Assembly: GCF_000299365.1 (NCBI RefSeq)
Contig: NC_018655.1
Span: 510,001 to 542,000 of the forward strand
DNA length: 32,000 nt
Source of the DNA: Candidatus Nitrosopumilus koreensis AR1
GTDB lineage: Archaea; Thermoproteota; Nitrososphaeria; Nitrososphaerales; Nitrosopumilaceae
Direction of reading: 5' to 3'
The notes beneath the pieces were generated by a model. That model saw only the letters and a program-made list of their open reading frames with translations. It was not told where the DNA came from and did not search any database. Shown here in pieces: positions 11,106 to 26,505 of the stretch (position 1 is its first letter; each line of letters opens with the position of its first letter). Both the position numbers and the translations under genes were made by a program.

Positions 11106-11123
11106 ACTGTACAGTACGGTACA
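11106..11123. promoter_or_regulatory. Perfect 10-nt palindrome ACTGTACAGT plus a (GTACN)x3 pentamer array abutting the wHTH start codon
   Basis: GTAC occurs at 11109, 11114 and 11119 (5-nt period). The palindrome at 11106..11115 touches ATG 11105..11103. Candidate operator; function is inferred only. Confidence 0.2.
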
Positions 11124-11285
11124 TTACCTTATTAGTCTTTAACTTGAGCTTTATTGATCTTTCTAGCTGATTTTTTTACACTTTTGCTTTGTGCCTACCC
11201 TCTTCCTAGATTATCACATTCCGATCAAATCTTATCTATGATTTTTGCCTAATCTCATAAATATCCCCTTTTTTGAAAATTATTT

Positions 11286-11867
11286 GTGAAAAAAATAGAG
11301 GCTGTAATAAAAAGGAAAAATTTCCCTACAATTAAAACTCATTTGAATACTGTTGGCACTTACATTATTGACAAACGAAATTTAGAAGACAGCAATATCT
11401 ATGATGAATCAAGAGGTTCACGTGTTGGTTCCACTGGCTTAAAATCTATTCCTCTGGCAAAAATTGAAACTGTTGTTCCAGATAAAGATGCAAGAAAAGT
11501 TGTTGAAATGATTTCAAAAAATTCTGGTTTGTCTGCAACTCATGGCGGAAAAATCTTTGTCTCTGAAATGGAAGAAGTGGTTGATATGGAAACTAATGAT
11601 GGTCAAAAAGATCTTGAGATTCCTTTTGAGGAAAATGTGGAAAGAAAATCATTGCCAAAACGAAGTAGATTTGTTCCTTTGCAAAAATTTACTTTACATA
11701 AACTCCAAGTAATATATGAAGAAAACAAAGATACGCTTCGAACTGATTATCGAATCAAATCATTTAGTGATTTTGTAAACCATTGCATCATGAAATATCT
11801 CCCAACATTGGAAAAACAATTGAAAAATCCTACAGTTATTTATGAAAATAATTTTGGGGATTTTTAA
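11286..11867 (+). CDS. PII-like (GlnB fold) domain fused to an RHH-like C-terminal domain
   Basis: 193 aa with a GTG start. Residues 1-106 align by eye to GlnB: MKKIEAVIK / MKKIDAIIK, IPLAKIETVVPDKD / LPKVKIEIVVPDD, HGGKIFVSEMEEVVDMETND / GDGKIFVFDVARVIRIRTGE. The C-terminus SRFVPLQKFTLHKLQVIYEE...KSFSDFVNHCIMKYL has an RHH-like strand-helix-helix pattern. Confidence 0.65.
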   Translation: MKKIEAVIKRKNFPTIKTHLNTVGTYIIDKRNLEDSNIYDESRGSRVGSTGLKSIPLAKIETVVPDKDARKVVEMISKNSGLSATHGGKIFVSEMEEVVDMETNDGQKDLEIPFEENVERKSLPKRSRFVPLQKFTLHKLQVIYEENKDTLRTDYRIKSFSDFVNHCIMKYLPTLEKQLKNPTVIYENNFGDF

Positions 11868-11868
11868 T

Positions 11869-11964
11869 TTAGAAAATGTAATCTGAAAATAACCATAAAC
11901 CTACTAGTGTTAGGCCCACTGCTGCCATTATCAATTTTGCAATCGTGATTTTAGATGTTTTCAT
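11869..11964 (-). CDS. Micro-ORF, 31 aa, single TM helix (unannotated)
   Basis: Hand translation gives MKTSKITIAKLIMAAVGLTLVGLWLFSDYIF. Its ATG overlaps the stop of the upstream micro-ORF (ATGA). Below the size cut-off of the ORF track. Confidence 0.3.
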   Translation of the reverse strand: MKTSKITIAKLIMAAVGLTLVGLWLFSDYIF

Positions 11965-12089
11965 ATGAATAGTAATAATATTGGTGGTATAACAATTATG
12001 CCTACGATTGCAGCTACTTTTGGATAGTCTTTGGGTTTTATGGGCTGCATCTTTTCTCTATGAAATAATTTACTTTTACGAATATTCAT
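11961..12089 (-). CDS. Micro-ORF, 42 aa, basic N-terminus plus C-terminal TM helix (unannotated)
   Basis: Hand translation gives MNIRKSKLFHREKMQPIKPKDYPKVAAIVGIIVIPPILLLFI. The ATG lies 6 nt after the glnK TGA stop on the same strand. Confidence 0.3.
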   Translation of the reverse strand: MNIRKSKLFHREKMQPIKPKDYPKVAAIVGIIVIPPILLLFI

Positions 12090-12095
12090 GTACAC

Positions 12096-12428
12096 TCACA
12101 TTATTGTTGATTCGCCTTCTTCGCCAGTTGCAATATCTACTGCACGTAATACCTGTGAAACGAAAATTTTACCGACTCTGCCATTTTCTTTAATGATGTT
12201 TATCACTTCATCTTCTTTAGATTCTGGTATAATAGCTTCAATCCAATATTTGTCATTGAACTGAGGGACAAAAATCTCGCTTCCTTTTGATGCGTGAATT
12301 TCTGGTCCTGGCTTTTTTCCTCTACCTCTAACTTTGCCTACTGTGAGTCCGCCTATGCCTATTTCTTTTAGTGCCTCACTAATTGCCATGACATCATTTT
12401 CGCCAAGAATGACTTCTATTTTGAGCAT
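12096..12428 (-). CDS. glnK: PII nitrogen regulatory protein (GlnB/GlnK family), divergent from amt
   Basis: 110 aa. MLKIEVIL..., GIGGLTVGKVRGRG (T-loop base), WIEAIIPES, GRVGKIFVSQVLRAVDIATGEEG. The symbol follows the convention for amt-linked PII genes; the GlnB versus GlnK subtype is not resolved. Confidence 0.8.
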   Translation of the reverse strand: MLKIEVILGENDVMAISEALKEIGIGGLTVGKVRGRGKKPGPEIHASKGSEIFVPQFNDKYWIEAIIPESKEDEVINIIKENGRVGKIFVSQVLRAVDIATGEEGESTIM

Positions 12429-12466
12429 TTGATAATTGTAATTTCTACTTGATAAATATAATTTCT
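12429..12466. promoter_or_regulatory. Direct repeat TTGATAA-N3-TAATTTCT x2 (20-nt period) directly upstream of glnK
   Basis: 12429..12446 is ttgataattgtaatttct and 12449..12466 is ttgataaatataatttct; 15 of 18 positions are identical. It starts immediately next to the glnK ATG (12428..12426). Candidate operator or promoter element. Confidence 0.25.
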
Positions 12467-12490
12467 GATTTTGTAGACCAAATGATTATC

Positions 12491-12505
12491 ATTTGACAAT
12501 CAAAT
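12491..12505. promoter_or_regulatory. Inverted repeat ATTTGA-CAA-TCAAAT about 40 nt upstream of the amt ATG
   Basis: Perfect 6-bp arms with a 3-nt spacer. An A/T-rich TATA-like tract, ttattaattaaaaa (12525..12538), follows before ATG 12545. Confidence 0.25.
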
Positions 12506-12544
12506 TAGGATATTGTTATTAATTAAAAACAATTTTTTTTCTCA

Positions 12545-13855
12545 ATGGTACTTGATTCTGGTGATACAGCATGGATGCTAGTAGCTGGAAGTCTTGTATT
12601 GCTTATGATCCCTGCATTGGGTCTTTTTGAATCTGGTTTACTAAGAAAGAAAAATGCGGCTTCAATTTTTATGCAGATATTTTTTGGTTTGGCACTTTTG
12701 AGTGTAATGTGGTTTGTATTTGGATTTAGTTTGTCTTTTGGTCCTTCTGATGAACTTGGTCTTATTGGTGATATGAATTGGGTTTTTCTCAAAGGCGTTC
12801 CATCTGATGCTCCTCTAGACTATGCACCAACAATTCCAGGCGTTCTGTTTGTAAAATTCCAATTGATGTTTGCTTGTATTACTCCATTGTTACTTACAGG
12901 AACAATTGCTGAAAGAATGAAGTTCAGCTCTTTTATCATATTTATTGCAGCATGGTCTACACTGATCTACTATCCTCTTGTACACTGGGTATGGGGTGGC
13001 GGTTGGTTAGCACAACTAGGAGTTGTAGACTTTGCAGGAGGCATTGTAATTCACACTAGTGTTGGTATGGCAGCTCTGGCTGCTGCGTTGGTACTTGGAA
13101 AGAGGAGGAATTATGGTCCTGCTATTATGATTCCTCATAGTATTCCACTTGCAGTTTTAGGTTCATCTTTGTTATGGCTTGGATGGTTTGGCTTTAATGC
13201 AGGCAGTGCACTTGCAGCATCTGGTGGTGTTGCAGGAAACACTGTTATCGTAACTCATATGGCTTCATCTGTTTCAGCCTTGATTTGGGGTGGGCTTTCA
13301 TGGGTAAGAACTGGAAAGCCTTCTGTTGTTGCTACAATTAATGGTGCAATTGCCGGACTTGCTGGAATTACACCTGCATCCGGATTTGTTAGTGCTGAAC
13401 ATGCATTTGTAATTGGTATTGCAATTGGTGTAATATCATACTCTGGCGTGGTGTTATTCAAAGAAAAACTACACATTGATGATGCACTTGATGTTAGTTC
13501 AGTTCACGGTGTTGCTGGTATTGTAGGTTCTCTTGCAATTGGTATCTTTGCAAGTACCATGATCAATCCTGGTGGAGTAGATGGATTGCTATTTGGTAAC
13601 CCTGATCAACTATGGATTCAAGCCGTAGGTGTTGGTGTTGCAGGTGCAATTGGATTTGGTGGAACATGGATACTGATGCAAATAATCAAACATTTGATTG
13701 GCATTAGAGTCACACCTGAAGTTGAAGACGTTGGTCTTGATATTAGTGAGCATGCAGAATCTGCATATTCAGATGAAGAAGAATTCATGTTAGATATGGA
13801 TACATACACAGATGAATTACAGAAAAAAGATGAAATCTTTAGAAAAAAGAAATAA
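12545..13855 (+). CDS. amt: Ammonium transporter (Amt/MEP/Rh family)
   Basis: 436 aa with about 11 TM segments. Signature regions DTAWMLVAGSLVLLMIPALGLFESG, VDFAGGIVIHTSVGMAALAAALVLGKR, GWFGFNAGSA and VHGVAGIVGSLAIGIFA. Acidic cytoplasmic tail. Confidence 0.93.
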   Translation: MVLDSGDTAWMLVAGSLVLLMIPALGLFESGLLRKKNAASIFMQIFFGLALLSVMWFVFGFSLSFGPSDELGLIGDMNWVFLKGVPSDAPLDYAPTIPGVLFVKFQLMFACITPLLLTGTIAERMKFSSFIIFIAAWSTLIYYPLVHWVWGGGWLAQLGVVDFAGGIVIHTSVGMAALAAALVLGKRRNYGPAIMIPHSIPLAVLGSSLLWLGWFGFNAGSALAASGGVAGNTVIVTHMASSVSALIWGGLSWVRTGKPSVVATINGAIAGLAGITPASGFVSAEHAFVIGIAIGVISYSGVVLFKEKLHIDDALDVSSVHGVAGIVGSLAIGIFASTMINPGGVDGLLFGNPDQLWIQAVGVGVAGAIGFGGTWILMQIIKHLIGIRVTPEVEDVGLDISEHAESAYSDEEEFMLDMDTYTDELQKKDEIFRKKK

Positions 13856-13865
13856 ATCTCTCACA

Positions 13866-13886
13866 TTTTTCACTTTAAATTTTTTT
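13866..13886 (+). terminator. Oligo-T tracts (T5 and T7) downstream of amt; candidate archaeal terminator
   Basis: ttttt at 13866..13870 and ttttttt at 13880..13886, within 35 nt of the amt stop. Archaeal RNA polymerase terminates at oligo-T (established knowledge). Confidence 0.3.
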
Positions 13887-13986
13887 AACTTAGAAATATC
13901 TATGTGGTTCCAAAAAAACAATTTGTAGTTTAAAATGAAAACGCTGAAATATTCCCACAAATTTTAGTCATACAGAGATAAACAAT

Positions 13987-14361
13987 TTGACTAACAAATA
14001 TGATGGATTATGTGATGAAATTCTTGCTTTAGATGATAAAGTTCGATTTGCCGGTATTGCAAACAGCAAAGGTGAATTAATTGCAGGTGGTCAAAAAGAT
14101 AATGTTGACAAGTTACTTGTAGGCGACGAAGTTAAAATGTCCATTCATTATGCATTACAAAAAAGAGATTTGTATACTAATTTGGCCTATAAAATAGGAG
14201 ATGAGCATTCATCAATTACTGAGTATGAGAAAGTAACAATGATTAGCATTCCTGTAAATTCTAGTGAGTTGTTTTTGATCAGTACCGAACCTCGAGCAGA
14301 TTATTTGAAAATTATAGATACTGCTCACGCTAAACTTGATTCTCTAAAAGAATCTCAATAA
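13987..14361 (+). CDS. Hypothetical protein, possibly Roadblock/LC7-like fold
   Basis: 124 aa. The only conventional in-frame start after the upstream stop (13945..13947) is TTG 13987. The pattern DDKVRFAGIANSKGELIAGG resembles the N-terminal strand-turn-strand of Roadblock/MglB-like proteins. Weak assignment. Confidence 0.4.
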   Translation: MTNKYDGLCDEILALDDKVRFAGIANSKGELIAGGQKDNVDKLLVGDEVKMSIHYALQKRDLYTNLAYKIGDEHSSITEYEKVTMISIPVNSSELFLISTEPRADYLKIIDTAHAKLDSLKESQ

Positions 14362-14474
14362 CTGTCTCTCTTGTTTTGTGCCTAGATGATAAAGTTAGAA
14401 TTAGCTTGAATTGTTTGAATTGTAAAAATATAGTAAATGATTTACTTTAAACACCTATCTTCTAAACATTTCTT

Positions 14475-15410
14475 GTGGATATAGTACTCAGCACAGCTCT
14501 TACTATTGTAGGGTTGGTGATGCTTTGCTTTGGTGGAAATTGGTTAGTTAGTGGCGGTGTCACCATTGCCAGAAAATTTCGTATCAGTAATCTTGTAATT
14601 GGAATGACTATTGTAGCATATGGTACATCTACTCCGGAACTTGCTGCAAGTGTAGCAGCTGCAGGTGAACATAGTGCAATTATTCTGGGAAATGTTGTTG
14701 GAAGTAATATTGCAAATGTTGGCATGGTGATTGGTATTGCCTCAATTATTGTTCCACTTGCAATTCAAAAATCTGTACTACGAAAAGAAATACCAATTAT
14801 GTTGGGTGTTTCTGTTTTACTTATTTTAATTTCAATTGACGGTGAATTGTCAATATATGATGGAGTATTGTTACTTGTTGGATTAGGTGTATTTGGATAT
14901 TATACTTTCAAAGATGCAATGAAACAACGAGAGGAAACTAAAGACCAAATCCCACAAGGTGGAAACAATATCTATCTAAAATCTATAGGTTTGATTGGAC
15001 TTGGTATTGGCCTTTTGTATGTTGGTGCTATTTTGACTGTAGATAATGCGGTAATACTTGCTAAAGAATTTGGTTTATCTGAAAAAATAATTGGCTTGAC
15101 TGTGATTGCAATTGGAACTTCTCTACCAGAATTAATTACTTCTATCATTGCAATTAGAAAAGGACATGGAGATATTGGTGTTGGTAATATCATAGGAAGC
15201 AACATCTACAATATCTTGATGATTATGGGTGTTGGTGCTGCCCTTGGCGGCGTAATAATTTCTGCGGATGTTTTTGTTGATTATGCAATCATGATCTTGT
15301 TTAGTATTGCATTGTTAATTGGCCTGAAAACAGGCATAATTAATAGAACCATGGGTGTGTGTCTGGCAGTAGGGTATGTACTTTATCTTGTCCTGACTTT
15401 TTTTAAATAA
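14475..15410 (+). CDS. Ca2+/cation antiporter (CaCA family, YrbG-like Na+/Ca2+ exchanger)
   Basis: 311 aa with a GTG start. Two alpha-repeat signatures, GTSTPELAASV and GTSLPELITSI, each followed by GNVVGSNI / GNIIGSNI. Confidence 0.88.
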   Translation: MDIVLSTALTIVGLVMLCFGGNWLVSGGVTIARKFRISNLVIGMTIVAYGTSTPELAASVAAAGEHSAIILGNVVGSNIANVGMVIGIASIIVPLAIQKSVLRKEIPIMLGVSVLLILISIDGELSIYDGVLLLVGLGVFGYYTFKDAMKQREETKDQIPQGGNNIYLKSIGLIGLGIGLLYVGAILTVDNAVILAKEFGLSEKIIGLTVIAIGTSLPELITSIIAIRKGHGDIGVGNIIGSNIYNILMIMGVGAALGGVIISADVFVDYAIMILFSIALLIGLKTGIINRTMGVCLAVGYVLYLVLTFFK

Positions 15411-15421
15411 TATTCCGTCAT

Positions 15422-16780
15422 CTAAATTGAATTAACTTTGATATTTTTTACTTTAATTGATGGTGTTACTGAGGGGAGTGATGCCCATTGGATGACGTTT
15501 TGTTGATTATTCCCAATTTCTAAAATATTTTTTAACATTATTGGAAGATTGTGAATTATTCTTACAGATTTTCCAGGGTTTTTAATTTCTCCATTTTCTA
15601 TAATTCTAACTCCGCTTCGTGCAGTACATGAAAAATCCCCTTTGATGGGATTCACTGCATATGTGTACCACAATCTCCCAATTAGTAACCCGTGTTTTGT
15701 ATCTTTAATCATATCTTCTTGCGAGGATTCTCCTGAATTGATTTTCAAATTATGTGGTGCTGATATTGGAATTGGTTCCGAACTTCGACCCATTGGAGAA
15801 CCTATTCTTGCAGCATTTCCAGTTGATTTTTTATCTTCTTTGTAACTATCAAAAAGATTTGAAAAAGTATTTTTAAAAACTCCATTTTGAATTAAATTAT
15901 TTTTTTGTGTCTTTAATCCTTCATCGTCAACTGATTTTGTTCCAATTCCTTCTGCAATATGGGGATCGTCTGTTAAATTAAAATCTGAAACTGCCACTTC
16001 TTCTTCTAAGTTATTTGAAAAACAGCTTTTCTTTTCTGAAAATGTTTTAAAATTAAAATTTAACGCTACTACAAATGCCAATAATTCTCCAACAGAATAT
16101 GGTTCAAAAATTATGGAATAGACATCTGTATCAATTTTTTTAGGATTTATTGACTCGATACACATTTTCTTTGCATCATTGCCAATCTGTTCTGCTGAAA
16201 ACTTTGATAACGTTCTACCGCTGACATGACCAATTCCTGATACTGGTAATGTTCCGTGTTCTGACTCTGCATTTATGATTCCTGAGATGTATGTTGATTT
16301 ATCTTTGAGATGTAGTCCGTTGGAGTTTTCTAGCTCAAAAAGTTCTGAAACTATGTTTAGTGAGCCTGTAATCGTATCAATTTTATCTGAATTTGTTGAA
16401 TTTATCATAGTTTGTGCGATATCCATTGCATCTGCACCTGTAATTTTTTCTAATTTTTCATCAAAAGTTCCTTTGAGATTTGTGATTGATACAGTTTCAG
16501 GTAGTCCCATCCAAAATTCTTTTGGTTTTAGATTTGATGTGGTTGAAAGTGCTAAATCTATTGCTTTTCCTAACTCTTCTTCCTTGTTGGTCTGAATGGA
16601 TGCAATTTTGTTTCCATGAATTAATCTCACTCCAAAACTCTTATCGAAACTTTGTTTAATTTCTGCAATCTCTGAATCTGTAATTCTTACTGTGATAATC
16701 TTTTTTTTCACAAAACTTATTTCACATTCATCAATTTGCCTTTTTTTTGAATGTTGTAATGCCTTTTCTAAGGCAGACAA
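15422..16780 (-). CDS. TldE/PmbA-family metallopeptidase-like protein (no HExxxH seen)
   Basis: 452 aa. C-terminal family pattern LLIGRLWYTYAVNPIKGDFSCTARSGVRIIENGEI. I found no HExxxH zinc motif, so it resembles the PmbA/TldE partner rather than TldD. The TTG start sits directly after the cofH TAA. Confidence 0.75.
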   Translation of the reverse strand: MSALEKALQHSKKRQIDECEISFVKKKIITVRITDSEIAEIKQSFDKSFGVRLIHGNKIASIQTNKEEELGKAIDLALSTTSNLKPKEFWMGLPETVSITNLKGTFDEKLEKITGADAMDIAQTMINSTNSDKIDTITGSLNIVSELFELENSNGLHLKDKSTYISGIINAESEHGTLPVSGIGHVSGRTLSKFSAEQIGNDAKKMCIESINPKKIDTDVYSIIFEPYSVGELLAFVVALNFNFKTFSEKKSCFSNNLEEEVAVSDFNLTDDPHIAEGIGTKSVDDEGLKTQKNNLIQNGVFKNTFSNLFDSYKEDKKSTGNAARIGSPMGRSSEPIPISAPHNLKINSGESSQEDMIKDTKHGLLIGRLWYTYAVNPIKGDFSCTARSGVRIIENGEIKNPGKSVRIIHNLPIMLKNILEIGNNQQNVIQWASLPSVTPSIKVKNIKVNSI

Positions 16781-18046
16781 TTACTTTCTCCTTGGATTTT
16801 GATAATTGAATTTGTTTATTTTAATCAATTCTACATATGATCCAAACTGTGTTGTGTTTGTAATTTTGTCAAGTTTGTCTTCTGATTCGTCACTGTCTTC
16901 AAACTTTTTTATTATTTTGTATTTTGTATTTCTTTCTGCAGGGACTCTGTTGATTTCTCTTACCATCCTTCTAATTTCTTTTGGTCTCAATAATTGTCCG
17001 TGTTCTGAACCTGCAGAAGTTGAAATACTTTCGTTAATTAAAGTTCCACCAAAATCATTAGCTCCCCACATTAATAATAATTGAGACATTTTTTGTCCTT
17101 CTTTAACCCATGACATCTGTATGTTATCGATGTAATTGTTCAACATTATTCTTGCAATTGCATGGGTGAGTAAAACATCGTTTCCACTTCCTCCCTGTCT
17201 AATTCCTTCATGTAATTGATGTTTGTACATTGGTGCTTCTGTATGAATAAAATTAAGCGGAACAAATTCTGTAAAACCCTTGGTTTCTTTTTGAATTTCC
17301 CTTAATTTTTCAATATGTTTTACTCTATCTTCATGAGATTCCAAGTGCCCAAACATCATAGTTGATGTTGTGTTTATTCCAATTTTGTGGGCGTTTTTGA
17401 TGACTCTTTCCCAATCTTTCACACTAATTCTGCCTGGTGAAATTTTGTCTCTTAATCTTTGATCAAGGATTTCAGCTGAAGTGCCTGGAAGTGTATCTAC
17501 TCCTGCTTCTTTCATTCTTTTGAGAAATTCTTCTATGCTTACACCTGAACGTGTGGCTCCATACAGAATTTCTTCAGGTGAGAATCCATGGATATGAATG
17601 TCTGGAATTTCCTTTTTGATTTCCCTACAAATATTTTCATACACATCTCCTTCCATGTCTGGTGGAAGCCCTGCTTGAATACAAACTTCAGTTGCCCCTA
17701 ACTGATGTGCCTCTTTTGCTCGACGTACGATCTCTTCTGTTGGTAGAAAATATCCTTCCTCTTCTCTAAAATCTCTGCTAAAAGCACAAAATCCACATTG
17801 TTTGATACATACATTTGTAAAATTGATATTTCTATTTACTACATAAGATACGACATTTCCTACTCTTCTCTTTCTTAATTCATCTGCTACCATTCCCACT
17901 AGATGAAACTCAATTCCAGATGTATTGTACAATTCCAAACCTTCTTTTGCAGAAACTTCTTTTTCTGAAAGAGCTTTGTTTAGAATTTCTGAAACAATCG
18001 GATCTGTATCTCTGAAAATAGCATCTATGTTTCTTATCATCTCCAA
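16781..18046 (-). CDS. cofH: 7,8-didemethyl-8-hydroxy-5-deazariboflavin (F0) synthase subunit CofH
   Basis: 421 aa. Radical-SAM motif CIKQCGFCAF preceded by VVNRNINFTNV. Overlaps cofG by 10 nt. Confidence 0.88.
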   Translation of the reverse strand: MEMIRNIDAIFRDTDPIVSEILNKALSEKEVSAKEGLELYNTSGIEFHLVGMVADELRKRRVGNVVSYVVNRNINFTNVCIKQCGFCAFSRDFREEEGYFLPTEEIVRRAKEAHQLGATEVCIQAGLPPDMEGDVYENICREIKKEIPDIHIHGFSPEEILYGATRSGVSIEEFLKRMKEAGVDTLPGTSAEILDQRLRDKISPGRISVKDWERVIKNAHKIGINTTSTMMFGHLESHEDRVKHIEKLREIQKETKGFTEFVPLNFIHTEAPMYKHQLHEGIRQGGSGNDVLLTHAIARIMLNNYIDNIQMSWVKEGQKMSQLLLMWGANDFGGTLINESISTSAGSEHGQLLRPKEIRRMVREINRVPAERNTKYKIIKKFEDSDESEDKLDKITNTTQFGSYVELIKINKFNYQNPRRK

Positions 18047-19205
18047 TACTCCTTCTTTACCAGACCTTCCTCATCTTGAACTTTTTCCATTTTTTCTTGT
18101 AGTTCTTTACTAATAAAAGAAAAGAATTCTGGATATATTGGAAACCTACATTTCAAATCAAATCCTGCCTGTTTAGAATTTTCTTCCACTCTGTTTATCT
18201 CCGGCCAGGAAAATTCTGGATTTACAAAATCGGGAGTTAATGGTGAAATTCCTCCCCAATCATTTATTCCCACTGACAAAAAACTTTGATACGACCTGGG
18301 TGAAAGGTTTGGTGGAATCTGTATGTTCATTTTAGGCATGATTATTCTGGATAATGCCACAATGATCTTGAAATATTTTTCATCAGCTGATGGCTCACCT
18401 CTCATTCTGGTATCTTGTTTTGGTTGGAAATTTTGTAAGATCACTTCTTGAATGTTTCCGTATTTTTGATGTAATTGTTTGATTGCTAATAACGAATCAA
18501 CAATCTCTTCTATGTTTTCCCCAATTCCTACAAGAATTCCTGTTGTCATTGGAATGCCTAACTTTCCAGAGTTTTCTAAAATCTCTAACCTTGCCTTTGG
18601 CCTTTTACTTGCTGCCAAGAAATGAGGCATTCCTTTCTCGGTTAACCTATCACTGATATTTTCAAGCATCAACCCCATTGAAACATTTGTTTTCTTTAAC
18701 TCCTTCATCTCTTCAAAATTCAAGTTTCCTGCATTGGTATGTGGAAATAACCCTTTTTCCAATGCTGTTTCGGATGCATGAATTAGGTATTCTGAAGTGG
18801 TTCTAAATCCATTTTCTCTTAACCAATCCCTTGCCTCTTGGTATCTTTGTTCAGGTTGCTCTCCTGTTACAAATAATGCTTCAACACATCTGTATTTTTT
18901 TGCAAGATCAAGTAATTCTGTAATTTGTTGCTTTGACATTAATGATAGTTTTTCTTCTCCTGGCTCTGCCTTGTATGTACAATATGAACAACTATCTTTG
19001 CAGAGATTAATGATGTTGAAAAATGCTTTTTTTGAAAATGTTACTGTGTTTCCCTTGTGTTTTTTCTTAAGACTTGTGCTGTTGAAAAAAGTTCGTTTGG
19101 ATCTTTTACTGCATGTTGATACACCTCTAAAATACTCTGACGTGAAATTTCCTTGTTGTCTAAAACATTGTTTAAACTCTCAGAATTTAAGACAAGTTTG
19201 TTCAA
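18037..19205 (-). CDS. cofG: F0 synthase subunit CofG, interrupted by a -1 frame change near 19059..19065
   Basis: The track ORF (18037..18939) starts at an internal Met. Its frame is open upstream to 19179 and encodes the radical-SAM motif NTVTFSKKAFFNIINLCKDSCSYCTY, yet has no ATG/GTG/TTG. A 54-codon ORF in the adjacent frame runs from TTG 19205 to a TAA stop at 19043..19041 (MNKLVLNSESLNNVLDNKEISRQSILEVYQHAVKDPNELFSTAQVLRKNTRETQ). It supplies a plausible N-terminus and joins the main frame by a -1 shift. Confidence 0.8.
19059..19065 (-). other. In-phase -1 slippery heptamer A_AAA_AAC at the cofG frame junction
   Basis: The upstream frame reads AGA AAA AAC ACA. After a -1 slip the next codon is CAC, giving ...AQVLRKN-HKGNTVTFSKK.... 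Equally explained by one missing A in an A6 run. Confidence 0.35.
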
Positions 19206-19247
19206 CAGAATGAGTTCTTGATTAAGGGTATTTATGCTTGTATAGAA

Positions 19248-20393
19248 TTAATTTCCGTTTGGTCTTTCTTGAAGAATAATTGAGACATTTGTAGTTCTGC
19301 CATCTCTTAAAACCTCTAAAATCATCTCGTCTCCAACTGCTTTTGCTCTTTGAAGGTGAATCAAAATATCATCAATTTTTCTTACTTCGATTCCATCCAC
19401 TGATAAGATGATGTCTCCTCCCATTGGATAGTTTACACCATCAACATCAATTGTTTTGTCTGATCCAATAAGACCTGCTTTAGATGCTGGACTGTCTTCT
19501 ACTACTGTTACTATTAAAAAGCCAACTGCATCTTGAAGCTCTAATGCTTTAGCCAAATCAGGATCAATATCTCTGCCTGAAATTCCTATCCATGGATGCT
19601 TGTATTCTCCATTTTCAATTAGTGTCGGAATTATTTTTGCAACTGTCTGTGATGGTATCGCAAATCCTACACCTGTAAATTCACCTGTTGCTGATTGAAT
19701 TGCCGTGTTGATTCCAACCACTTCCCCTCTCATGTTTAATAATGGTCCTCCAGAGTTTCCTGGATTAATTGCTGCATCTGTTTGAATGACATCTGGGATG
19801 GAGTATCCTGAAGAAGCTAGTGGGAGCAATCTTCCTAATTGGCTAACAATTCCTGATGTCATGGAACCTGATAATCCAAAGGGATTGCCTATGGCTGCTA
19901 TGGGTTCTCCAACTTTGAGGTTAGAAGAATCTCCTATTAGTAATGGACGTAACAATGCTAAATCTGCATTAACTTTGATTATTGCAAGATCTGTAAATTC
20001 ATCTACTCCTATAATCTCTGCATTATATGATCTTCCGTCAAGAAATGTCACAATAATTTTTTGTGCATTATTAATTACGTGTGCATTTGTAATTACATGT
20101 CCATTTTTGTCAAAAACAAAACCTGAACCCACTCCTCCAACAGAATCTGCATTTTCTCCTCTCTGAACATTGACTCGTACTACTCCTGGTTCTGATTTTT
20201 CAAATATTTCAATTAATGATAATTTTTTTGTATGCGTAGGGGTGATTTCTCCCACAGTGCTTGGATCATGTCCGTTGCTGACTATGATGTTTGGTTTCTC
20301 TACTTCTGGCGGTGAAACAAATAGTACTGCAAAAATTACTATTACGATCGTAGCTCCTATGGCCCCACCTACAAATACGCCTGATTTGTCCAT
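19248..20393 (-). CDS. HtrA/DegP-family serine protease with PDZ domain, membrane anchored
   Basis: 381 aa with an N-terminal TM helix. Catalytic-triad contexts HVITNAHV, TDLAIIKV and TDAAINPGNSGGPLLN. C-terminal PDZ-like region GDIILSVDGIEV. Confidence 0.9.
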   Translation of the reverse strand: MDKSGVFVGGAIGATIVIVIFAVLFVSPPEVEKPNIIVSNGHDPSTVGEITPTHTKKLSLIEIFEKSEPGVVRVNVQRGENADSVGGVGSGFVFDKNGHVITNAHVINNAQKIIVTFLDGRSYNAEIIGVDEFTDLAIIKVNADLALLRPLLIGDSSNLKVGEPIAAIGNPFGLSGSMTSGIVSQLGRLLPLASSGYSIPDVIQTDAAINPGNSGGPLLNMRGEVVGINTAIQSATGEFTGVGFAIPSQTVAKIIPTLIENGEYKHPWIGISGRDIDPDLAKALELQDAVGFLIVTVVEDSPASKAGLIGSDKTIDVDGVNYPMGGDIILSVDGIEVRKIDDILIHLQRAKAVGDEMILEVLRDGRTTNVSIILQERPNGN

Positions 20394-20431
20394 GAGGTTT
20401 TTTGTTTCTTATTTTATATCTAAAAGGCTTG

Positions 20432-21640
20432 CTATACACTAATTGAACTCTGAGAATGATCTTTCATGGAATAACTTCTTCCTCTCCAAGTAACTGATGA
20501 TTCTTTGTTGGCTTGAAGTAATCCACTCAAAAATCCTAAAACCACAACTAGGCTGCCTAATGGAGCAAATAATGCATGAACTAATCTTAACTCTAATCCT
20601 TTTTTTGCTTCAACTATTGCCCCGATGTAAATTAATAATAATGCCATAAACGATGTGACACAAAGAGTGTTTGCAGATATAGTTTCATTAGGTAATGCTA
20701 TGGATGCTGCAAAAATTGGAAATGGTACAAATAGTAAAAACAACACTGCAAAGAAAATTCCCACAGCTATTTTTCCACTTTGTAGATACAAGGGAATCAT
20801 TAATCTTTTTAATGCATTCCAAAGTGTGCTCTTGTCTCTTGCCCATACTGCATCAATGAGGTGTTCTCCTCTTACCATTTTCATTTTATGACCCGATTCT
20901 TTTACTTTCTTTCCTAGTGCGCCATCTTCAATTATTTCGTGTTTGACTCCTTCATGCATGCCAACTTGTTCGTATGTTTTTTTCTTCAAAATGAAGAAAC
21001 TACCAAAAAAATACCCTGTCTTCTTTGAAGGATTGTTGACATTTAATGCAGAAAATCTTGTGTGCAAGAACGTGGAGATCATTGGGAGTGTAATTTTTGT
21101 CCAAAAATCAAATGTTAACATTTTTGGAATAACTGATAATGCATCTAAATCAAATGAAATAAGATGCGCCACTGCAAGAGACACTACATTTTTTTGATGT
21201 GTTGTATCTGCGTCGGTAAATAATAACAAGTCTCCTGTTGCCTTTCGATATCCCTCCATGCATGCCCAGTTTTTCCCCATCCATCCATCTGGTTTTGTTT
21301 TTGCAGATACGTGAATGACTTTGGAATATTTATTAGCATACTCTGAAATTATTTCTCCAGTAGAATCTTCTGATGAATCATCAATTACGATGATCTCATA
21401 GTTTTGATAATCTTGGTTAATCAAAGAGTCTAAACATTTTCCAAGAAATTCTTCTTCATTTCTTGCTGGAAGTATTATTGATACTTTGGGAGATGTTTTT
21501 GCAGTATTTTTGAATCTGTCAAGATATGGTGTTAATCTAAACGAATCTGACATTGATTTTATTAAAAATATCCACGCCCCGCATATTCCAATTAGAATTG
21601 CAGACAACGAATAATTGAAAACATCAAATGCTATGTCCAT
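20432..21640 (-). CDS. Family 2 glycosyltransferase with multiple TM helices
   Basis: VSIILPARNEEEFLGKCLDSLINQDYQNYEIIVIDDSSEDST and the DxD-like LLFTDADT. Hydrophobic C-terminal third. The track starts at GTG 21643; ATG 21640 is more likely. Confidence 0.85.
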   Translation of the reverse strand: MDIAFDVFNYSLSAILIGICGAWIFLIKSMSDSFRLTPYLDRFKNTAKTSPKVSIILPARNEEEFLGKCLDSLINQDYQNYEIIVIDDSSEDSTGEIISEYANKYSKVIHVSAKTKPDGWMGKNWACMEGYRKATGDLLLFTDADTTHQKNVVSLAVAHLISFDLDALSVIPKMLTFDFWTKITLPMISTFLHTRFSALNVNNPSKKTGYFFGSFFILKKKTYEQVGMHEGVKHEIIEDGALGKKVKESGHKMKMVRGEHLIDAVWARDKSTLWNALKRLMIPLYLQSGKIAVGIFFAVLFLLFVPFPIFAASIALPNETISANTLCVTSFMALLLIYIGAIVEAKKGLELRLVHALFAPLGSLVVVLGFLSGLLQANKESSVTWRGRSYSMKDHSQSSISV

Positions 21641-21642
21641 CA

Positions 21643-22083
21643 CTATCTCTCGATTTCTTCTTTGATACTTTGCATAGCCTGCTCAGTGCCACTTTTGATG
21701 TGATTTTTTATCATGCCTGTAAACATGCTCATCATACCTGTTAGTTTGATGTTCCAATCTGTTTGTAGTATGGTATGGTTTCCCTCTGGGATTAATGATA
21801 CAATTTTTTCACCGTTGATTATGCCTTTGGTAAATTTTGCATGAATTCTGTCTTTTGGCTCTATGGTGACTTCTTGCATGCATTTTTGATCTCGAAATGC
21901 TATTGTGATCTCTCTGTTTATTGTATTTTCATTCTTTGAGATGTTTCTTACTTCTTTTGTTCCTTTCCAAAACTTTGGTTCATTATCGATATCTGAGACC
22001 ACATCCCATACTTTTTCAACTGGAGCATTGATTTTGAGTTTGACTTGTATTGTAGCCATGAAGTGCAATTGTTCATTCCGCAT
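21643..22083 (-). CDS. SRPBCC (START/Bet v1-like) superfamily protein
   Basis: 146 aa. ATIQVKLKINAPVEKVWDVVSDIDNEPKFW is the typical N-terminal strand plus helix of SRPBCC proteins. The internal Met at 22059 may be the real start. Confidence 0.65.
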   Translation of the reverse strand: MRNEQLHFMATIQVKLKINAPVEKVWDVVSDIDNEPKFWKGTKEVRNISKNENTINREITIAFRDQKCMQEVTIEPKDRIHAKFTKGIINGEKIVSLIPEGNHTILQTDWNIKLTGMMSMFTGMIKNHIKSGTEQAMQSIKEEIER

Positions 22084-22214
22084 TAAATATATTAGATTCC
22101 CATTCTATTGCAAATAGACTGTGATGGGCAACATGCCTAAAATCCAGAACAGTAACTCCAGTTCTAATGGCGTTTGCCATTCTTCCGTCACAGTCACCCA
22201 ATCTTTGAAAGAAA

Positions 22215-22430
22215 ATGAAACCTTCGAAATATATGCCAAAAATAGGAACCTTTGATGGTGTCGGCTTTTGGAAAAATGCATACGCACATCAACGTGGAAA
22301 ATTATTAAAAAAAGTCAATGTACCTGATGATCAAATTGTTGAACTTGTTAACAAAAAATACATGGAGCTTCCAGCAGCATTAAGATATGAAATTGAAACT
22401 AGCGGCATTGATAAAAAAGATCTGCAGTAA
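22215..22430 (+). CDS. Hypothetical small protein (71 aa)
   Basis: ORF with an ATG start and balanced, non-repetitive composition. Divergent from the SRPBCC gene. No family recognised. Confidence 0.4.
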   Translation: MKPSKYMPKIGTFDGVGFWKNAYAHQRGKLLKKVNVPDDQIVELVNKKYMELPAALRYEIETSGIDKKDLQ

Positions 22431-22468
22431 TTCGAAATTCATTTAATGGGCCATATTGTTGTTTTTTC

Positions 22469-22798
22469 ATGTCAAATGTATCTTATGACGATTTTGCAAA
22501 ATTAGACATTAGGGTAGCAAAAATCATTGCAACAGAACCTATTGAAGGTAAATCAAGAATTATCAAAGGACGAATTGATTTGGGAAATGATGATCACCGT
22601 GATGTAATTATTGGTGGTGCTCAATACTTTCAACCTGAGGACATTGTTGGAAAAACCGTAATCGTCCTTGCAAATCTAGAGCCAAAGAAAATGGCGGGAG
22701 TTGAATCTAATGCAATGCTTTTAGCTGCAGATGTTGATGATAAACCATTTTGGTTAACTGTAGAAGAAGATGTTCCTTTGGGAAGTCCTGTCAAATAA
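22469..22798 (+). CDS. tRNA-binding domain protein (CsaA / Trbp111 / EMAP-like OB fold)
   Basis: 109 aa. DFAKLDIRVAKIIATEPIEG...VANLEPKKMAGVESNAMLLAA is the classic tRNA_bind domain pattern. Confidence 0.85.
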   Translation: MSNVSYDDFAKLDIRVAKIIATEPIEGKSRIIKGRIDLGNDDHRDVIIGGAQYFQPEDIVGKTVIVLANLEPKKMAGVESNAMLLAADVDDKPFWLTVEEDVPLGSPVK

Positions 22799-22940
22799 TC
22801 TATTAAAGATAAAAACTCGAGCCAATTTCATTTTTTTCTATTAATCCTATTTTCTAAATCTTGTATTGTATCTGCAAAATTTAATTGTCTATGTATACTT
22901 GAATTATTAAATAATTAATGAAAATATGTTTGATTTATGA

Positions 22941-23501
22941 CTAGTCATAAATCATTAGATCTTTTTCTTCTAGTAATGCATGTAAATTATTTACAGATCT
23001 GTAAACATCTGGTTCTTTCTTTGCTCCTGTACAGACAAGTTTTCCTGAGGAAAACAACAAAATGACTGTTTTAGGATCTAGCATTCTATGAATAAGTCCT
23101 GGAAATTGCTCTGGTTCGTACATACTTCTTGGTAGTGTTCTTGCAGCTTGTTCTAAGTGAATTTTTCCACCTAGATTAATTGATGCAACAATATTTTGAA
23201 TTTCTACTACTGCATCTTTCTTTACTTTGATTCCTCCTTTTCGAAGTTTTTGTACAACTGTCTTTACTGCTTTTCTTGCCATCTCTTCTGACTTGGAACC
23301 CGTACATACCATTTTACCTGAAGTGAAAATCAATGTTGCAGTTTTTGGACTCTTTAATCTAAAAACTAGCCCTGGAAATTGATCAGGATGATATTCTACA
23401 TCTGGAAATGTTCTGGTAATCTCATTCAAGTCCATCTTTTGATCTACAGATGCCGAAGCTACTACATTTTCCACACTTACGATAGGTTTGGTTTGTGGCA
23501 T
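22941..23501 (-). CDS. tbp: TATA-box binding protein
   Basis: 186 aa. Two direct repeats: IENVVASASV...YHPDQFPGLVFRL...TATLIFTSGKMVCTGSKS and IQNIVASINL...YEPEQFPGLIHRM...VILLFSSGKLVCTGAKK. Confidence 0.95.
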   Translation of the reverse strand: MPQTKPIVSVENVVASASVDQKMDLNEITRTFPDVEYHPDQFPGLVFRLKSPKTATLIFTSGKMVCTGSKSEEMARKAVKTVVQKLRKGGIKVKKDAVVEIQNIVASINLGGKIHLEQAARTLPRSMYEPEQFPGLIHRMLDPKTVILLFSSGKLVCTGAKKEPDVYRSVNNLHALLEEKDLMIYD

Positions 23502-23639
23502 ATTCGATTTTTTTGTATTTTAACTATAATAAAAGCACTCGCCATATTTTTTACCATCTGTAGGCATTTTCCTCATTTTTTTGACTTAATTGTGTATTGG
23601 ACGAATGGTTTAATTGAGATCTGACGATCGTGAAATTTA

Positions 23640-24761
23640 GTGAATTTTACTAATTTTGATTTTGAACAATTATTTGGAATGAAAGATGATACTAACCCTT
23701 TGATGATGTTGGTTTGGATTTTGCCCATTATCATCTTCATTTTTTACGGCCAACGAATTCAGTTGTATGTCACTTCAGGTGAAATCAAAAAAGGAATAAA
23801 AAAACTAGGTGAATTTAGAGATGAATCAAGAAATGAGTTGCTTGACTACATCAATAAACAACTGAATCCGAAAAGTAACCCCGAAAAAAAAATTGATCAA
23901 TTTTTAGATTATTTTACTATCATGCCTGTTGATATGGATCCAAATGGCATTGTTGAGAAAGTTCAGCATACAGTAAGATCAAGAGAAGACTATACACGTG
24001 AACATGTAAAATCACTTTTTTCTGAAATACCTGATGTTGAATTATCCAAAGTCCAAACTTTACTTGAAATTGCATCTTCATTGCAGATGATTCATAAAAT
24101 TATCAATCACATGTTTTTAACTGCAAAAAAACAAAATAACTATCCTTTAATTTTGCCCCTTCAAATGATTCTGCCTTTTATAATGGAGCAGGCAGAAGCC
24201 ATGAAAGAAGCAGTACCTGTATTTAAAACAGGACAACCTGTAGGTGATGGAATTGGACCTATGGTTGTTGGAAAAATGATGTTAAATAGTCCAAAAGAAG
24301 CAATTGCATTTCAAACTGCACTTGTAAAAACTGAATTTGAAAACAGAAAATTATTTTTATTAAAAGCAGAAGGTCCTGGGTCTACTGTAGGACGCCCTGC
24401 GGATGCGTTAGAATCGATAATTTCAGAAAATAAAATTGACGCAATAATCATGATTGATGCTGCATTAAAAATGGAAGGTGAGGACTCTGCATCTGTTGCA
24501 CGTGGTTTTGGTGCAGCTATTGGGGGAATCGGAACTGAAAAATTCCACATAGAGGCAATTGCAGTTGAAAAACAAATTCCAATTTTTTCCATTGTCGTAA
24601 AACAATCTGTTAAAGAAGCAATTACTCTAATGACAAAAGAAATTGCAAACCAAGCAGATGATGTACGTTCACAAGTCTATGAAATGATTAAAGAAAATAC
24701 TCAGGAAGGACAATCTGTGGTAATAATAGGTGTTGGAAATACTGTGGGAGTTCCTCAATAA
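23640..24761 (+). CDS. Archaeal DUF1512-like membrane-anchored protein
   Basis: 373 aa with a GTG start. N-terminal TM helix LMMLVWILPIIIFIFYGQRIQ followed by a soluble domain. Resembles the DUF1512 family as I remember it; not verified. Confidence 0.5.
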   Translation: MNFTNFDFEQLFGMKDDTNPLMMLVWILPIIIFIFYGQRIQLYVTSGEIKKGIKKLGEFRDESRNELLDYINKQLNPKSNPEKKIDQFLDYFTIMPVDMDPNGIVEKVQHTVRSREDYTREHVKSLFSEIPDVELSKVQTLLEIASSLQMIHKIINHMFLTAKKQNNYPLILPLQMILPFIMEQAEAMKEAVPVFKTGQPVGDGIGPMVVGKMMLNSPKEAIAFQTALVKTEFENRKLFLLKAEGPGSTVGRPADALESIISENKIDAIIMIDAALKMEGEDSASVARGFGAAIGGIGTEKFHIEAIAVEKQIPIFSIVVKQSVKEAITLMTKEIANQADDVRSQVYEMIKENTQEGQSVVIIGVGNTVGVPQ

Positions 24762-24940
24762 TGTTTTCAAAAGAAAAAATCACAATTGCATACACCGTTG
24801 AGAAGTGTGGAAAATGTGGGATGCAAAAGAAAAGAAAATTCTCTGCTGGTGACATGTTGTTCTCTGAAGTATCAAAATGTGATTCATGTGATGGTATCGT
24901 GACAATTGAGAAAATATTCGGTGAAACTGTAGAGCAATAA
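24761..24940 (+). CDS. Zinc-ribbon small protein, 59 aa (unannotated)
   Basis: Hand translation gives MFSKEKITIAYTVEKCGKCGMQKKRKFSAGDMLFSEVSKCDSCDGIVTIEKIFGETVEQ, with two CxxC pairs spaced 21 aa apart. Its ATG overlaps the TAA of the DUF1512-like gene (TAATG). It is one residue below the 60-aa track threshold. Confidence 0.5.
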   Translation: MFSKEKITIAYTVEKCGKCGMQKKRKFSAGDMLFSEVSKCDSCDGIVTIEKIFGETVEQ

Positions 24941-24941
24941 T

Positions 24942-25835
24942 TTATGCTTGAGTAGTAACAGTAACTCCGTTTTCTGTTGGAATGAATGTGTGTTCTGCTT
25001 GAGCTACTCTTTGCTCATTTACTTCAATTAACACAGGATATGCTTGCACTGCCTTTTTCTTTATTAGAATATTTAACAAATTCCTTGCTTCTTTTTCATC
25101 TCTTTCTTTTGTAATCCATCTCAATGCAAATGGCAACATGTTGAAACTCTCCCAGATAAAATCAAGCAACTTATCAGCTTCTGGATCCTTTGTTTTCTTT
25201 CTAGAGTTTATTGCAAAAATATTTTTTATCTGTCCATTCCTGACAAATCCTCCCCCGTCACTTGTTGTCACAAATGGCTCACATGCATATGCAGAATTTT
25301 CTGAGAGTGAAAAACCCCCAATTGACCAAATATTTGGAATGGATTTTCCTGCATGTATTGTATACTGTTCTAGTGAATGCCCGCTAAGATTTGCAATTGG
25401 TTTGTATCCCATTTGTTTTATTGTGGTTTCTATGGTTCTTCCAATATCACTTGCTTTTACTCCTGCTTTTATCATTGACATTGCATTTGCTAATCCTTCT
25501 TCTGCTGCTTGAACTAATCCGTCATATTGTGGATCATAACATACCGTTACTGCTGTGTCTGCAATGTAACCATTAATCTGTGCACCAAGATCAATTTTTA
25601 CCAAGTCTGTATCTTTGATGATGATTGGATCATTTGGTTCTGCAGTATAGTGAGCAGCAACTTCATTGATGCTTGTATTAACTGGAAATGCACACTTTGC
25701 CCCACGCTTTCTGATTTCATCTTCTACCAATTCGCAAATTTCGTAGACTGTTTTTCCAATCCAGTCTTTTACTCTGACCATCTCTCTAACTTCAGATGCA
25801 ATTTTTCCTGCTTTGATGTAATCTTCTATTTGCAC
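24942..25835 (-). CDS. map: Methionine aminopeptidase, type 2 (archaeal)
   Basis: 297 aa. Pita-bread fold motifs DLVKIDLGAQINGYIADTA, GHSLEQYTIHAGKSIP and AQAEHT. Length is typical of archaeal MetAP2. Confidence 0.92.
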   Translation of the reverse strand: MQIEDYIKAGKIASEVREMVRVKDWIGKTVYEICELVEDEIRKRGAKCAFPVNTSINEVAAHYTAEPNDPIIIKDTDLVKIDLGAQINGYIADTAVTVCYDPQYDGLVQAAEEGLANAMSMIKAGVKASDIGRTIETTIKQMGYKPIANLSGHSLEQYTIHAGKSIPNIWSIGGFSLSENSAYACEPFVTTSDGGGFVRNGQIKNIFAINSRKKTKDPEADKLLDFIWESFNMLPFALRWITKERDEKEARNLLNILIKKKAVQAYPVLIEVNEQRVAQAEHTFIPTENGVTVTTQA

Positions 25836-25907
25836 ATTTTTGCTCCCCTATGTGCCTTTAAAATGATTATCTGTGAAGCTTAAATTGGGCGACTTTTAGG
25901 ACTTACT

Positions 25908-25984
25908 GGGATCGTGGTCTAGCTTGGTATGATTCTGCGTTTGGGACGCAGAGGTCGCGCGTTCAAATCTCGCCGATCCCACCA
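25908..25984 (+). tRNA. tRNA-Pro (anticodon UGG) with genomically encoded CCA
   Basis: Folded by hand. Acceptor GGGATCG/CGATCCC, anticodon stem CTGCG/CGCAG, loop TTTGGGA (anticodon TGG, G37), T-loop TTCAAAT, discriminator A followed by CCA at 25982..25984. One C-U mismatch in the T stem. A TATA-like TTAAAT sits about 25 nt upstream. Confidence 0.85.
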
Positions 25985-26121
25985 TTATCTTATTATCAAA
26001 TTAGTTGGTAGTAACATTGCCTGAGCAATGAGGAAGAGTTAGAGTAATGACTTTGATATGAAGTAAACTAATGGCTCTGAGCTCCGGCATGTTTTTATCA
26101 ATTCCTTGAGGTTTTGTTTTA

Positions 26122-26367
26122 TTGAAATTTGAGAGACGAGATATTATTTTGATTGCAGGACTTTTGCTTTTCATGATTGGACTGATACCTTTCATGAGTC
26201 CTGCATATGCTGCAATTATAGTGATTGTCATGTATTTTGGAATCAAAATCTATGTTGCAAAGAGACGTCAAATAATTCAAAGAGATGTGGGAGATGGCAT
26301 ATGCCTGGAATGTGGGGCTAAAATAAATGATAAAAAATGCCCAAATTGTGACTATTCTCAGGAATGA
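26122..26367 (+). CDS. Small membrane protein with C-terminal zinc ribbon
   Basis: 81 aa with a TTG start. Two hydrophobic helices (IILIAGLLLFMIGLIPF and AAIIVIVMYFGIKIYV), then CLECGAKINDKKCPNC. Confidence 0.5.
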   Translation: MKFERRDIILIAGLLLFMIGLIPFMSPAYAAIIVIVMYFGIKIYVAKRRQIIQRDVGDGICLECGAKINDKKCPNCDYSQE

Positions 26368-26505
26368 TTGATACGTAGACCTTAAAACTGAAAAATTACT
26401 AACATTGATGATGGTTTTAAGATATATGACTTTAACAACTAGCTCAACTTTTCCTCAATTTCATTCTAAAATGACTCTTCTCGTCAAAAAAGACAGGAAA
26501 CAACA

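What the first reader, a model, noticed from the sequence alone, without database searches (positions are those of the whole stretch)
19035..19210. cofG (F0 synthase radical-SAM subunit) has its start and first 50 codons in a different frame, joined at an in-phase A_AAA_AAC heptamer
Seen in the sequence: the annotated ORF starts at Met 18939, downstream of the essential CxxxCxxC cluster motif (CKDSCSYC at about 19002..18979). That frame is open up to 19179 but contains no ATG, GTG or TTG. A 54-codon ORF from TTG 19205, MNKLVLNSESLNNVLDNKEISRQSILEVYQHAVKDPNELFSTAQVLRKNTRETQ*, reads AGA AAA AAC across 19067..19059. A -1 shift there yields ...AQVLRKN-HKGNTVTFSKKAFFNIINLCKDSCSYCTYK.... Without this join the cell would make a CofG lacking its Fe-S cluster ligands. 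Yet cofH and the rest of the operon are intact. So the gene is either expressed by recoding or the A6 run is mis-called by one base.
Basis: partly seen in the sequence, partly recalled or inferred. Interest (0 to 1): 0.62.

Follow-up and report, generated by a model that had tools for sequence, protein, structure and literature searches.

The report
cofG split by homopolymer miscall
The F420-cofactor gene cofG of this marine ammonia-oxidising archaeon looks broken only because the assembly has one A too few in a run of A's, almost certainly a 454 sequencing error and not a recoding signal or a dead gene.

Summary
On the minus strand, cofG is split at an A6 run (19065..19060). A 54-codon ORF (TTG 19205 to TAA 19041) carries the conserved N-terminus. 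The rest, including CxxxCxxC (19002..18979), lies in the -1 frame, whose first start codon is ATG 18939.

The split is very probably an assembly artefact:
- All 19 same-genus genomes examined have one uninterrupted ORF of about 389 codons; 10 of them read AGA AAA AAA (A7) here.
- An independently sequenced assembly of a near-identical strain (GCA_000328945.1) matches the window over 21,170 bp with 0 mismatches and one gap. That gap is this run, which is A7 there and gives an intact 389-aa CofG.
- The paper on these cultures reports 454 GS-FLX Titanium sequencing only.
- The same genome has at least eight other genes split at A/T runs, in both directions. They include single-copy GluRS and glycerol-1-phosphate dehydrogenase, and FtsY.
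- No RNA structure follows the heptamer, and the heptamer is what losing one A from AGA-AAA-AAA-CAC automatically leaves.

Odds: miscall about 0.85, real recent mutation about 0.1, programmed frameshift about 0.03.

The parts
19228..19241 (-). Conserved promoter-like box ACAAGCATAAATAC (archaeal BRE/TATA type). Its centre lies about 27 nt upstream of the TTG start, which suggests a leaderless cofGH transcript.
   Evidence: The box is nearly invariant in the alignment of the window with 19 same-genus loci. Reading it as a TATA box is inference from general knowledge of archaeal promoters.
19203..19205 (-). True cofG start codon (TTG).
   Evidence: TTG sits at the aligned position in 17 of 19 relatives and ATG in the other two. 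Most database homologues, including NCBI-named CofG, are 389 aa, which matches this start.
19041..19205 (-). Upstream 54-codon ORF. This is the genuine N-terminal segment of CofG, followed by 6 out-of-frame codons and TAA.
   Evidence: It aligns with the N-termini of intact CofG in relatives.
19060..19065 (-). A6 run, one base shorter than in the near-identical sister assembly (A7). It is the site of the apparent frameshift.
   Evidence: It is the only gap, with no mismatches, in 21,170 bp against GCA_000328945.1.
19059..19065 (-). A_AAA_AAC heptamer, in phase with the upstream frame. It is an automatic by-product of losing one A from AGA-AAA-AAA-CAC.
18979..19002 (-). Radical-SAM cluster motif CKDSCSYC (CxxxCxxC).
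18037..19179 (-). Main cofG reading frame (380 open codons plus stop). Its first start codon is ATG 18939, downstream of the Cys motif.
   Evidence: NF004884 399.9 bits, TIGR03550 389.2 bits.
16781..18040 (-). cofH (419 aa as called on the sister contigs). Its ATG overlaps the cofG stop by 4 nt (ATGA), so the two genes form a cofGH operon.
   Evidence: (TIGR03551 471 bits against a cut-off of 374), and the gene tables.

Best explanation
cofG here is an ordinary, intact, single-copy gene for the CofG radical-SAM subunit of F0 synthase. It is the first gene of a cofGH operon with a conserved promoter box and a conserved TTG start. The frame break is an assembly artefact. The consensus of this genome, which by inference is the finished genome of the AR enrichment of Park et al. 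2014 built from 454 pyrosequencing reads, under-calls an A7 homopolymer as A6. In the cell the gene most likely reads ...AQVLRKKHKGNTVTFSKK... and yields a 389-aa protein with its Fe-S ligands. No recoding is needed.
For: 1. All 19 same-genus genomes have one uninterrupted ORF through this point. Ten of them read AGA AAA AAA.

2. The exact A7 read-through protein exists in the public collection (P0001, 100% identity). It is encoded on AJVI01000009.1 of GCA_000328945.1. That contig matches the window over 13,170 bp and then 21,170 bp with 0 mismatches and a single gap, which is this A run.

3. The A6 form occurs only in this genome and in a draft that is 100% identical to it over 47 kb (GCA_000328925.1). 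These are probably the same read set.

4. PMC4010524 states that the AR and SJ enrichments were sequenced on 454 GS-FLX Titanium only, at 34x and 42x. It also states that the SJ and AR1 drafts were independently sequenced and assembled yet nearly identical.

5. My scan of the whole genome found 35 same-strand ORF pairs of this kind. For eight of them a Pfam domain or a fixed domain architecture spans a junction at an A5-A8 run: metallo-beta-lactamase, FtsY, glycerol-1-phosphate dehydrogenase, TruD, 2-hydroxyacid dehydrogenase, GluRS, IlvE and NurA. Some need one base more and some one base fewer.

6. GluRS and G1P dehydrogenase are single-copy, and FtsY has only its SRP54 paralogue. A growing culture cannot carry these breaks for real.

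7. No second cofG exists in the genome. cofH, cofC and cofD are intact.
Against: The A6 call itself is therefore untested.

The two assemblies come from two separately maintained enrichment cultures, so a genuine one-base difference between them is possible.

At least one other break (GluRS) is probably shared by both 454 assemblies. Its 419-aa fragment is on two 50-200 kb contigs, and no near-100% intact GluRS was found. So not every break behaves as a random, assembly-specific error, and I have to assume systematic 454 miscalls for those.

That this genome is the AR1 genome of the paper is inferred. It rests on identity to the AJVJ and AJVI records, the single contig and the genome size. No name was shown.
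Confidence: 0.85

Rival explanations
1. The deletion is real and recent in the AR culture line. On this reading cofG is a fresh pseudogene in this strain, perhaps polymorphic in the culture. F0/F420 synthesis would be lost, or sustained only by low-level spontaneous slippage on the A run.
For: AR and SJ are separate cultures. The only difference in 21 kb is this base, and homopolymers are also natural mutation hot spots. The A6 form is present in both records derived from the AR culture.
Against: There is no other sign of decay. There are 0 mismatches to the intact SJ gene, and cofH, cofC and cofD are intact. cofG is single-copy and uninterrupted in all 19 relatives and in all 120 listed database hits. 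The same genome shows the same kind of break in genes that cannot be lost. This makes a sequencing cause the common explanation. The two AR records are probably not independent data.
Confidence: 0.11
2. Programmed recoding. The A6 allele is real, and full-length CofG is made by -1 ribosomal frameshifting on A_AAA_AAC, or by transcriptional slippage that adds an A.
For: A canonical X_XXY_YYZ heptamer lies in phase with the upstream frame. The 0-frame stop follows 6 codons later. A -1 shift gives a full-length product...LRKN-HKGNTVTFSK.... From my own knowledge, an archaeal precedent exists in Saccharolobus solfataricus fucA1, which uses A_AAA_AAT.
Against: The frameshift is not conserved. It is absent from 19 of 19 relatives, from the 0-mismatch sister strain and from all listed homologues. 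The heptamer is an automatic consequence of deleting one A from the AGA-AAA-AAA-CAC seen in the sister assembly. The 84 nt downstream fold no better than shuffles (MFE -3.3 against a mean of -6.9 kcal/mol, z = +1.64). A6 is short for efficient transcriptional slippage (general knowledge). No regulatory rationale exists for a truncated 54-aa product.
Confidence: 0.03

Closest known systems
CofG (7,8-didemethyl-8-hydroxy-5-deazariboflavin synthase subunit 1; NCBIfam NF004884 / TIGR03550) of Nitrosopumilus species
   Same: Full-length match to the family models. It has the CxxxCxxC motif, the 389-aa length once the run is read as A7, 91% identity to the NCBI 'MULTISPECIES CofG [Nitrosopumilus]' protein, and the cofG-cofH ATGA overlap.
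   Different: Only the one-base shortfall in the A run in this assembly.
454 pyrosequencing homopolymer-length errors in consensus assemblies
   Same: The break is a single-base length difference in an A/T run of 5-8 bases. Both under-calls and over-calls are scattered through the genome, including in essential single-copy genes. The data are 454-only.
   Different: No reads were seen here, so this is inferred from the pattern and not from flowgrams.
Programmed -1 ribosomal frameshifting (for example dnaX and IS911 on A_AAA_AAG; archaeal fucA1 of Saccharolobus solfataricus on A_AAA_AAT), recalled from the literature
   Same: An in-phase A-rich X_XXY_YYZ heptamer, with the required shift being -1.
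   Different: There is no conservation of the shift, no downstream stimulator and no functional short product. An identical strain has the gene in frame.
Rescue of poly(A)-tract frameshifts by transcriptional slippage in endosymbionts (Buchnera, Blochmannia), recalled from the literature
   Same: Genes are interrupted at A runs.
   Different: Those tracts are usually 9 or more A's and are conserved as broken. Here the runs are A5-A8, in a free-living archaeon, and are not conserved.

Membership tests
CofG (NF004884 / TIGR03550) | Whole-protein score above the curated cut-off | tested here: met
   399.9 bits against a cut-off of 209, and 389.2 bits against 213.35, for the downstream frame alone. 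It is the only locus in the genome over the cut-off.
CofG (NF004884 / TIGR03550) | Radical-SAM CxxxCxxC cluster motif | tested here: met
   CKDSCSYC at 19002..18979. It is upstream of the first start codon of that frame, so it is only expressed if joined to the TTG-19205 ORF.
CofG (NF004884 / TIGR03550) | Partner CofH encoded alongside | tested here: met
   cofH lies at 18040..16781 and scores 471 bits on TIGR03551 against a cut-off of 374.1. It overlaps the cofG stop by 4 nt.
Programmed -1 ribosomal frameshift site | Slippery heptamer X_XXY_YYZ in the 0 frame | tested here: met
   A_AAA_AAC at 19065..19059 is in phase. It is an automatic result of losing one A from AGA-AAA-AAA-CAC, the reading in the sister assembly.
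Programmed -1 ribosomal frameshift site | Stimulatory RNA structure a few nucleotides downstream | tested here: not met
   The 84 nt downstream have an MFE of -3.3 kcal/mol. All 200 of 200 shuffles fold at least as well, z = +1.64.
Programmed -1 ribosomal frameshift site | Frameshift arrangement conserved among relatives | tested here: not met
   None of 19 same-genus genomes has it. The 0-mismatch sister assembly is in frame, and the 120 best database hits are single proteins of 384-396 aa.
Programmed -1 ribosomal frameshift site | Frameshift product detected | not testable with these tools
   This needs proteomics or a reporter assay.
Sequencing (homopolymer) artefact | Independent sequence of the same DNA lacks the break | tested here: met
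   The GCA_000328945.1 contig matches over 21,170 bp with 0 mismatches. The one gap is this run, which is A7 there.
Sequencing (homopolymer) artefact | Platform prone to such errors, and similar breaks elsewhere in the assembly | tested here: met
   454 GS-FLX Titanium only. At least 8 further genes are split at A5-A8 runs, including single-copy GluRS and EgsA, and FtsY.
Sequencing (homopolymer) artefact | Reads disagree with, or are ambiguous about, the consensus run length | not testable with these tools

The most novel reading that the evidence does not exclude
The A6 allele is real in the AR culture, and the cell still makes full-length CofG by -1 ribosomal slippage on A_AAA_AAC. This would be a newly arisen, unselected frameshift 'rescued' by a naturally slippery site in a thaumarchaeon.
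Probability: 0.03. Interest if true: 0.45.

Novelty: not a real feature. Interest (0 to 1): 0.06.

Why it matters
The finding matters mainly as a caution. This reference genome represents its species in GTDB-type collections, and it carries many homopolymer frame errors. Automatic annotation consequently reports truncated or missing CofG, FtsY, GluRS, G1P dehydrogenase and other proteins. Pan-genome or pathway-presence analyses of ammonia-oxidising archaea that use it could wrongly score F420 biosynthesis and other core functions as defective. Recoding screens will also keep flagging false 'slippery sites' in it. If, against the odds, A6 were real, this would be a very young loss or a leaky rescue of F0 synthesis in a cultured thaumarchaeon.

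Tried and rejected
- **Whole-record comparison.** The genome search on the record behind L021 failed because the record is not held. The comparison with the SJ assembly was therefore limited to 21 kb reached through the look-up of encoding contigs.
- **Testing whether SJ carries intact copies of other broken genes.**
  - A search with the read-through GluRS found no near-100% intact protein; the best hit was 98% on a short Logan contig.
  - The 419-aa GluRS fragment is on two 50-200 kb contigs, so that break is probably shared by both 454 assemblies.
  - The 106-aa FtsY fragment is only on the AR draft.
  - The IlvE fragment was not on record, probably because of a different called start.
- **Second F0 synthase locus.** Rejected. 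The only other matches are cofH and distant radical-SAM paralogues.
- **Downstream frameshift stimulator.** Rejected.
- **Alternative start in the cofG frame upstream of the Cys motif.** Rejected. There is no ATG, GTG or TTG between 19179 and 18939, and relatives start at the TTG/ATG aligned with 19205.
- **Literature search** for reported frameshifts in this genome returned nothing useful.

Full report
**Observation**

On the minus strand, a TTG at 19205 opens a 54-codon ORF that ends at TAA 19043..19041. It reads AGA AAA AAC across 19067..19059, and the A6 run is 19065..19060.

The frame one base upstream (-1) is open from 19179 to the stop at 18039..18037. It contains CKDSCSYC at 19002..18979, but it has no ATG, GTG or TTG before ATG 18939. 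That frame is unmistakably CofG. It scores 399.9 bits on NF004884 (cut-off 209) and 389.2 bits on TIGR03550 (cut-off 213).

cofH follows directly at 18040..16781, scoring 471 bits on TIGR03551, and overlaps the cofG stop by 4 nt. All coordinates and readings in the finding are therefore correct.

**Is the upstream ORF part of the gene?**

Yes. I fetched the homologous stretch from 19 genomes of the same genus, at 74-80% DNA identity. In every one a single ORF of about 390 codons runs from a codon aligned with TTG 19205 through ...LRKKFKKDSVTFSKKAFFNIVNLCKDTCSYC... to the end of cofG.

The start codon is TTG in 17 of them and ATG in 2. It is preceded at a fixed distance by a nearly invariant box, ACAAGCATAAATAC (window 19241..19228). 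I read this box as the archaeal BRE/TATA element of a leaderless cofGH transcript. That reading is inference from general knowledge of archaeal promoters.

At the break point the window has a one-column gap relative to all 19 relatives. Ten of them read AGA AAA AAA; the window reads AGA AAA AA-.

**A near-identical genome has the gene in frame**

A search with the read-through protein returned a 100% identical 389-aa protein, P0001, among 5.8 billion. It is encoded on AJVI01000009.1 of assembly GCA_000328945.1. That contig matches the window over 13,170 bp, and with longer flanks over 21,170 bp. There are 0 mismatches and exactly one gap, which is the A run; it is A7 there.

The A6 form, with a 300-aa gene call, is found only in a record longer than 1 Mb and on AJVJ01000021.1 of GCA_000328925.1. 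The AJVJ contigs I fetched are 100.000% identical to this genome over 23,291 + 21,260 + 2,426 bp.

**Provenance**

PMC4010524 (Park et al. 2014) describes two enrichment cultures, AR and SJ. Both were sequenced solely on 454 GS-FLX Titanium, with thaumarchaeal coverage of 34x and 42x. [quoted passage not shown]

The genome holding the window is a single contig of 1,639,964 bp. From its identity to the AJVJ and AJVI records I infer that it is the finished AR1 genome. No name was shown to me. Homopolymer length miscalls are the characteristic error of 454 data (general knowledge).

**Is the assembly generally affected?**

I laid the genome in the Python box. I then listed same-strand ORF pairs in which a downstream frame is open across the upstream ORF's stop but has no start codon for at least 15 codons. 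There were 35 such pairs, 17 with an A/T run of 5 or more bases in the overlap zone, and cofG was among them.

I read ten of them through at the run and scanned them against Pfam. In eight, a single domain or a fixed domain architecture spans the junction:
- metallo-beta-lactamase (A5 at genome position 249227)
- FtsY, with N and G domains in different frames (A6 at 344245)
- glycerol-1-phosphate dehydrogenase (A7 at 1534541)
- TruD (A6 at 1140665)
- 2-hydroxyacid dehydrogenase (A6 at 357075)
- glutamyl-tRNA synthetase, with catalytic and anticodon-binding domains in different frames (A6 at 240890 or 240900)
- IlvE (A6 at 188539)
- NurA (A8 at 1170758)

Some need one base more and some one base fewer. 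tblastn shows that GluRS and G1P dehydrogenase are single-copy and that FtsY has only its SRP54 paralogue. A culture that grows cannot truly lack these, so the breaks are errors of the consensus.

The scan's earlier notes list 42 further entries of the same kind in this genome, covering TFB, PGI/PMI, 4-hydroxybutyrate-CoA ligase, XPF and others. I used these as leads only and did not test them.

**Recoding hypothesis**

The heptamer A_AAA_AAC is indeed in phase, and a -1 shift would restore the protein. Three things weigh against recoding:
- The heptamer is exactly what remains when one A is removed from AGA-AAA-AAA-CAC, the reading in the sister assembly. It therefore carries no independent weight.
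- The 84 nt downstream fold worse than shuffled controls. The MFE is -3.3 against a mean of -6.9 kcal/mol, and all 200 of 200 shuffles fold at least as well.
- The arrangement is not conserved in any relative, nor in the 0-mismatch sister strain.

A6 is also short for productive transcriptional slippage (general knowledge). I put recoding at about 3%.

**Real mutation hypothesis**

AR and SJ are separate cultures, so a genuine one-base loss in AR is possible, and reads could not be checked. Against it:
- The gene shows no other change relative to the intact SJ copy.
- The rest of the pathway (cofH, cofC, cofD) is intact.
- cofG is single-copy.
- The same assembly shows the same defect in indispensable genes.

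I put this at about 11%.

**A wrinkle**

Not all breaks are specific to the AR assembly. The 419-aa GluRS fragment occurs on two 50-200 kb contigs, and no near-100% intact GluRS exists in the protein collection. The SJ assembly therefore probably shares that break. The FtsY fragment, by contrast, is only on the AR draft. Shared breaks are expected if 454 miscalls are context-dependent, but this part is inference.

**Verdict**

cofG is an ordinary cofGH operon with an assembly-level homopolymer under-call. It is not a biological feature. Interest is low. The value of the result is in flagging that this reference genome needs polishing.

Noticed in passing
Whole genome G000 (outside the window): genome positions 249227, 344245, 1534541, 1140665, 357075, 240890/240900, 188539, 1170758: At least eight further genes are split at A5-A8 runs, with a Pfam domain or fixed architecture spanning the junction. 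They are a metallo-beta-lactamase, FtsY, G1P dehydrogenase, TruD, a 2-hydroxyacid dehydrogenase, GluRS, IlvE and NurA. Further untested candidates of the same pattern include Rad50 at about 1175586, a GT2 at 86589 and a membrane glycosyltransferase at 76998.
   Followed up: partly
window 8037..29205, compared with L026 (GCA_000328945.1 AJVI01000009.1): The archaeon from the 'SJ' culture (Donghae, Korea) and this genome (inferred to be the AR culture, Svalbard) show 0 substitutions in 21,170 bp. The paper also reports about 99% ANI for the bacterial partners. The two cultures seem to hold the same clone, which raises the possibility of a shared laboratory origin or cross-contamination rather than two geographic isolates.
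   Followed up: partly
G000 242135..240430 (GluRS): The 419-aa GluRS fragment is present on two different 50-200 kb contigs, and no intact near-identical GluRS is on record. The break is therefore probably reproduced in both independent 454 assemblies. It is either a systematic miscall or something that needs a read-level look.
   Followed up: partly
window 19228..19241 (minus strand): The box ACAAGCATAAATAC is nearly invariant across 20 Nitrosopumilus genomes, about 27 nt upstream of the cofG TTG start. It is a good example of a conserved thaumarchaeal promoter that implies a leaderless mRNA with a TTG start.
   Followed up: partly
L025 (AJVJ01000016.1 151115..153540) = G000 342453..344878: The AR draft contig ends about 600 bp after the ftsY frame break.
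   Followed up: no
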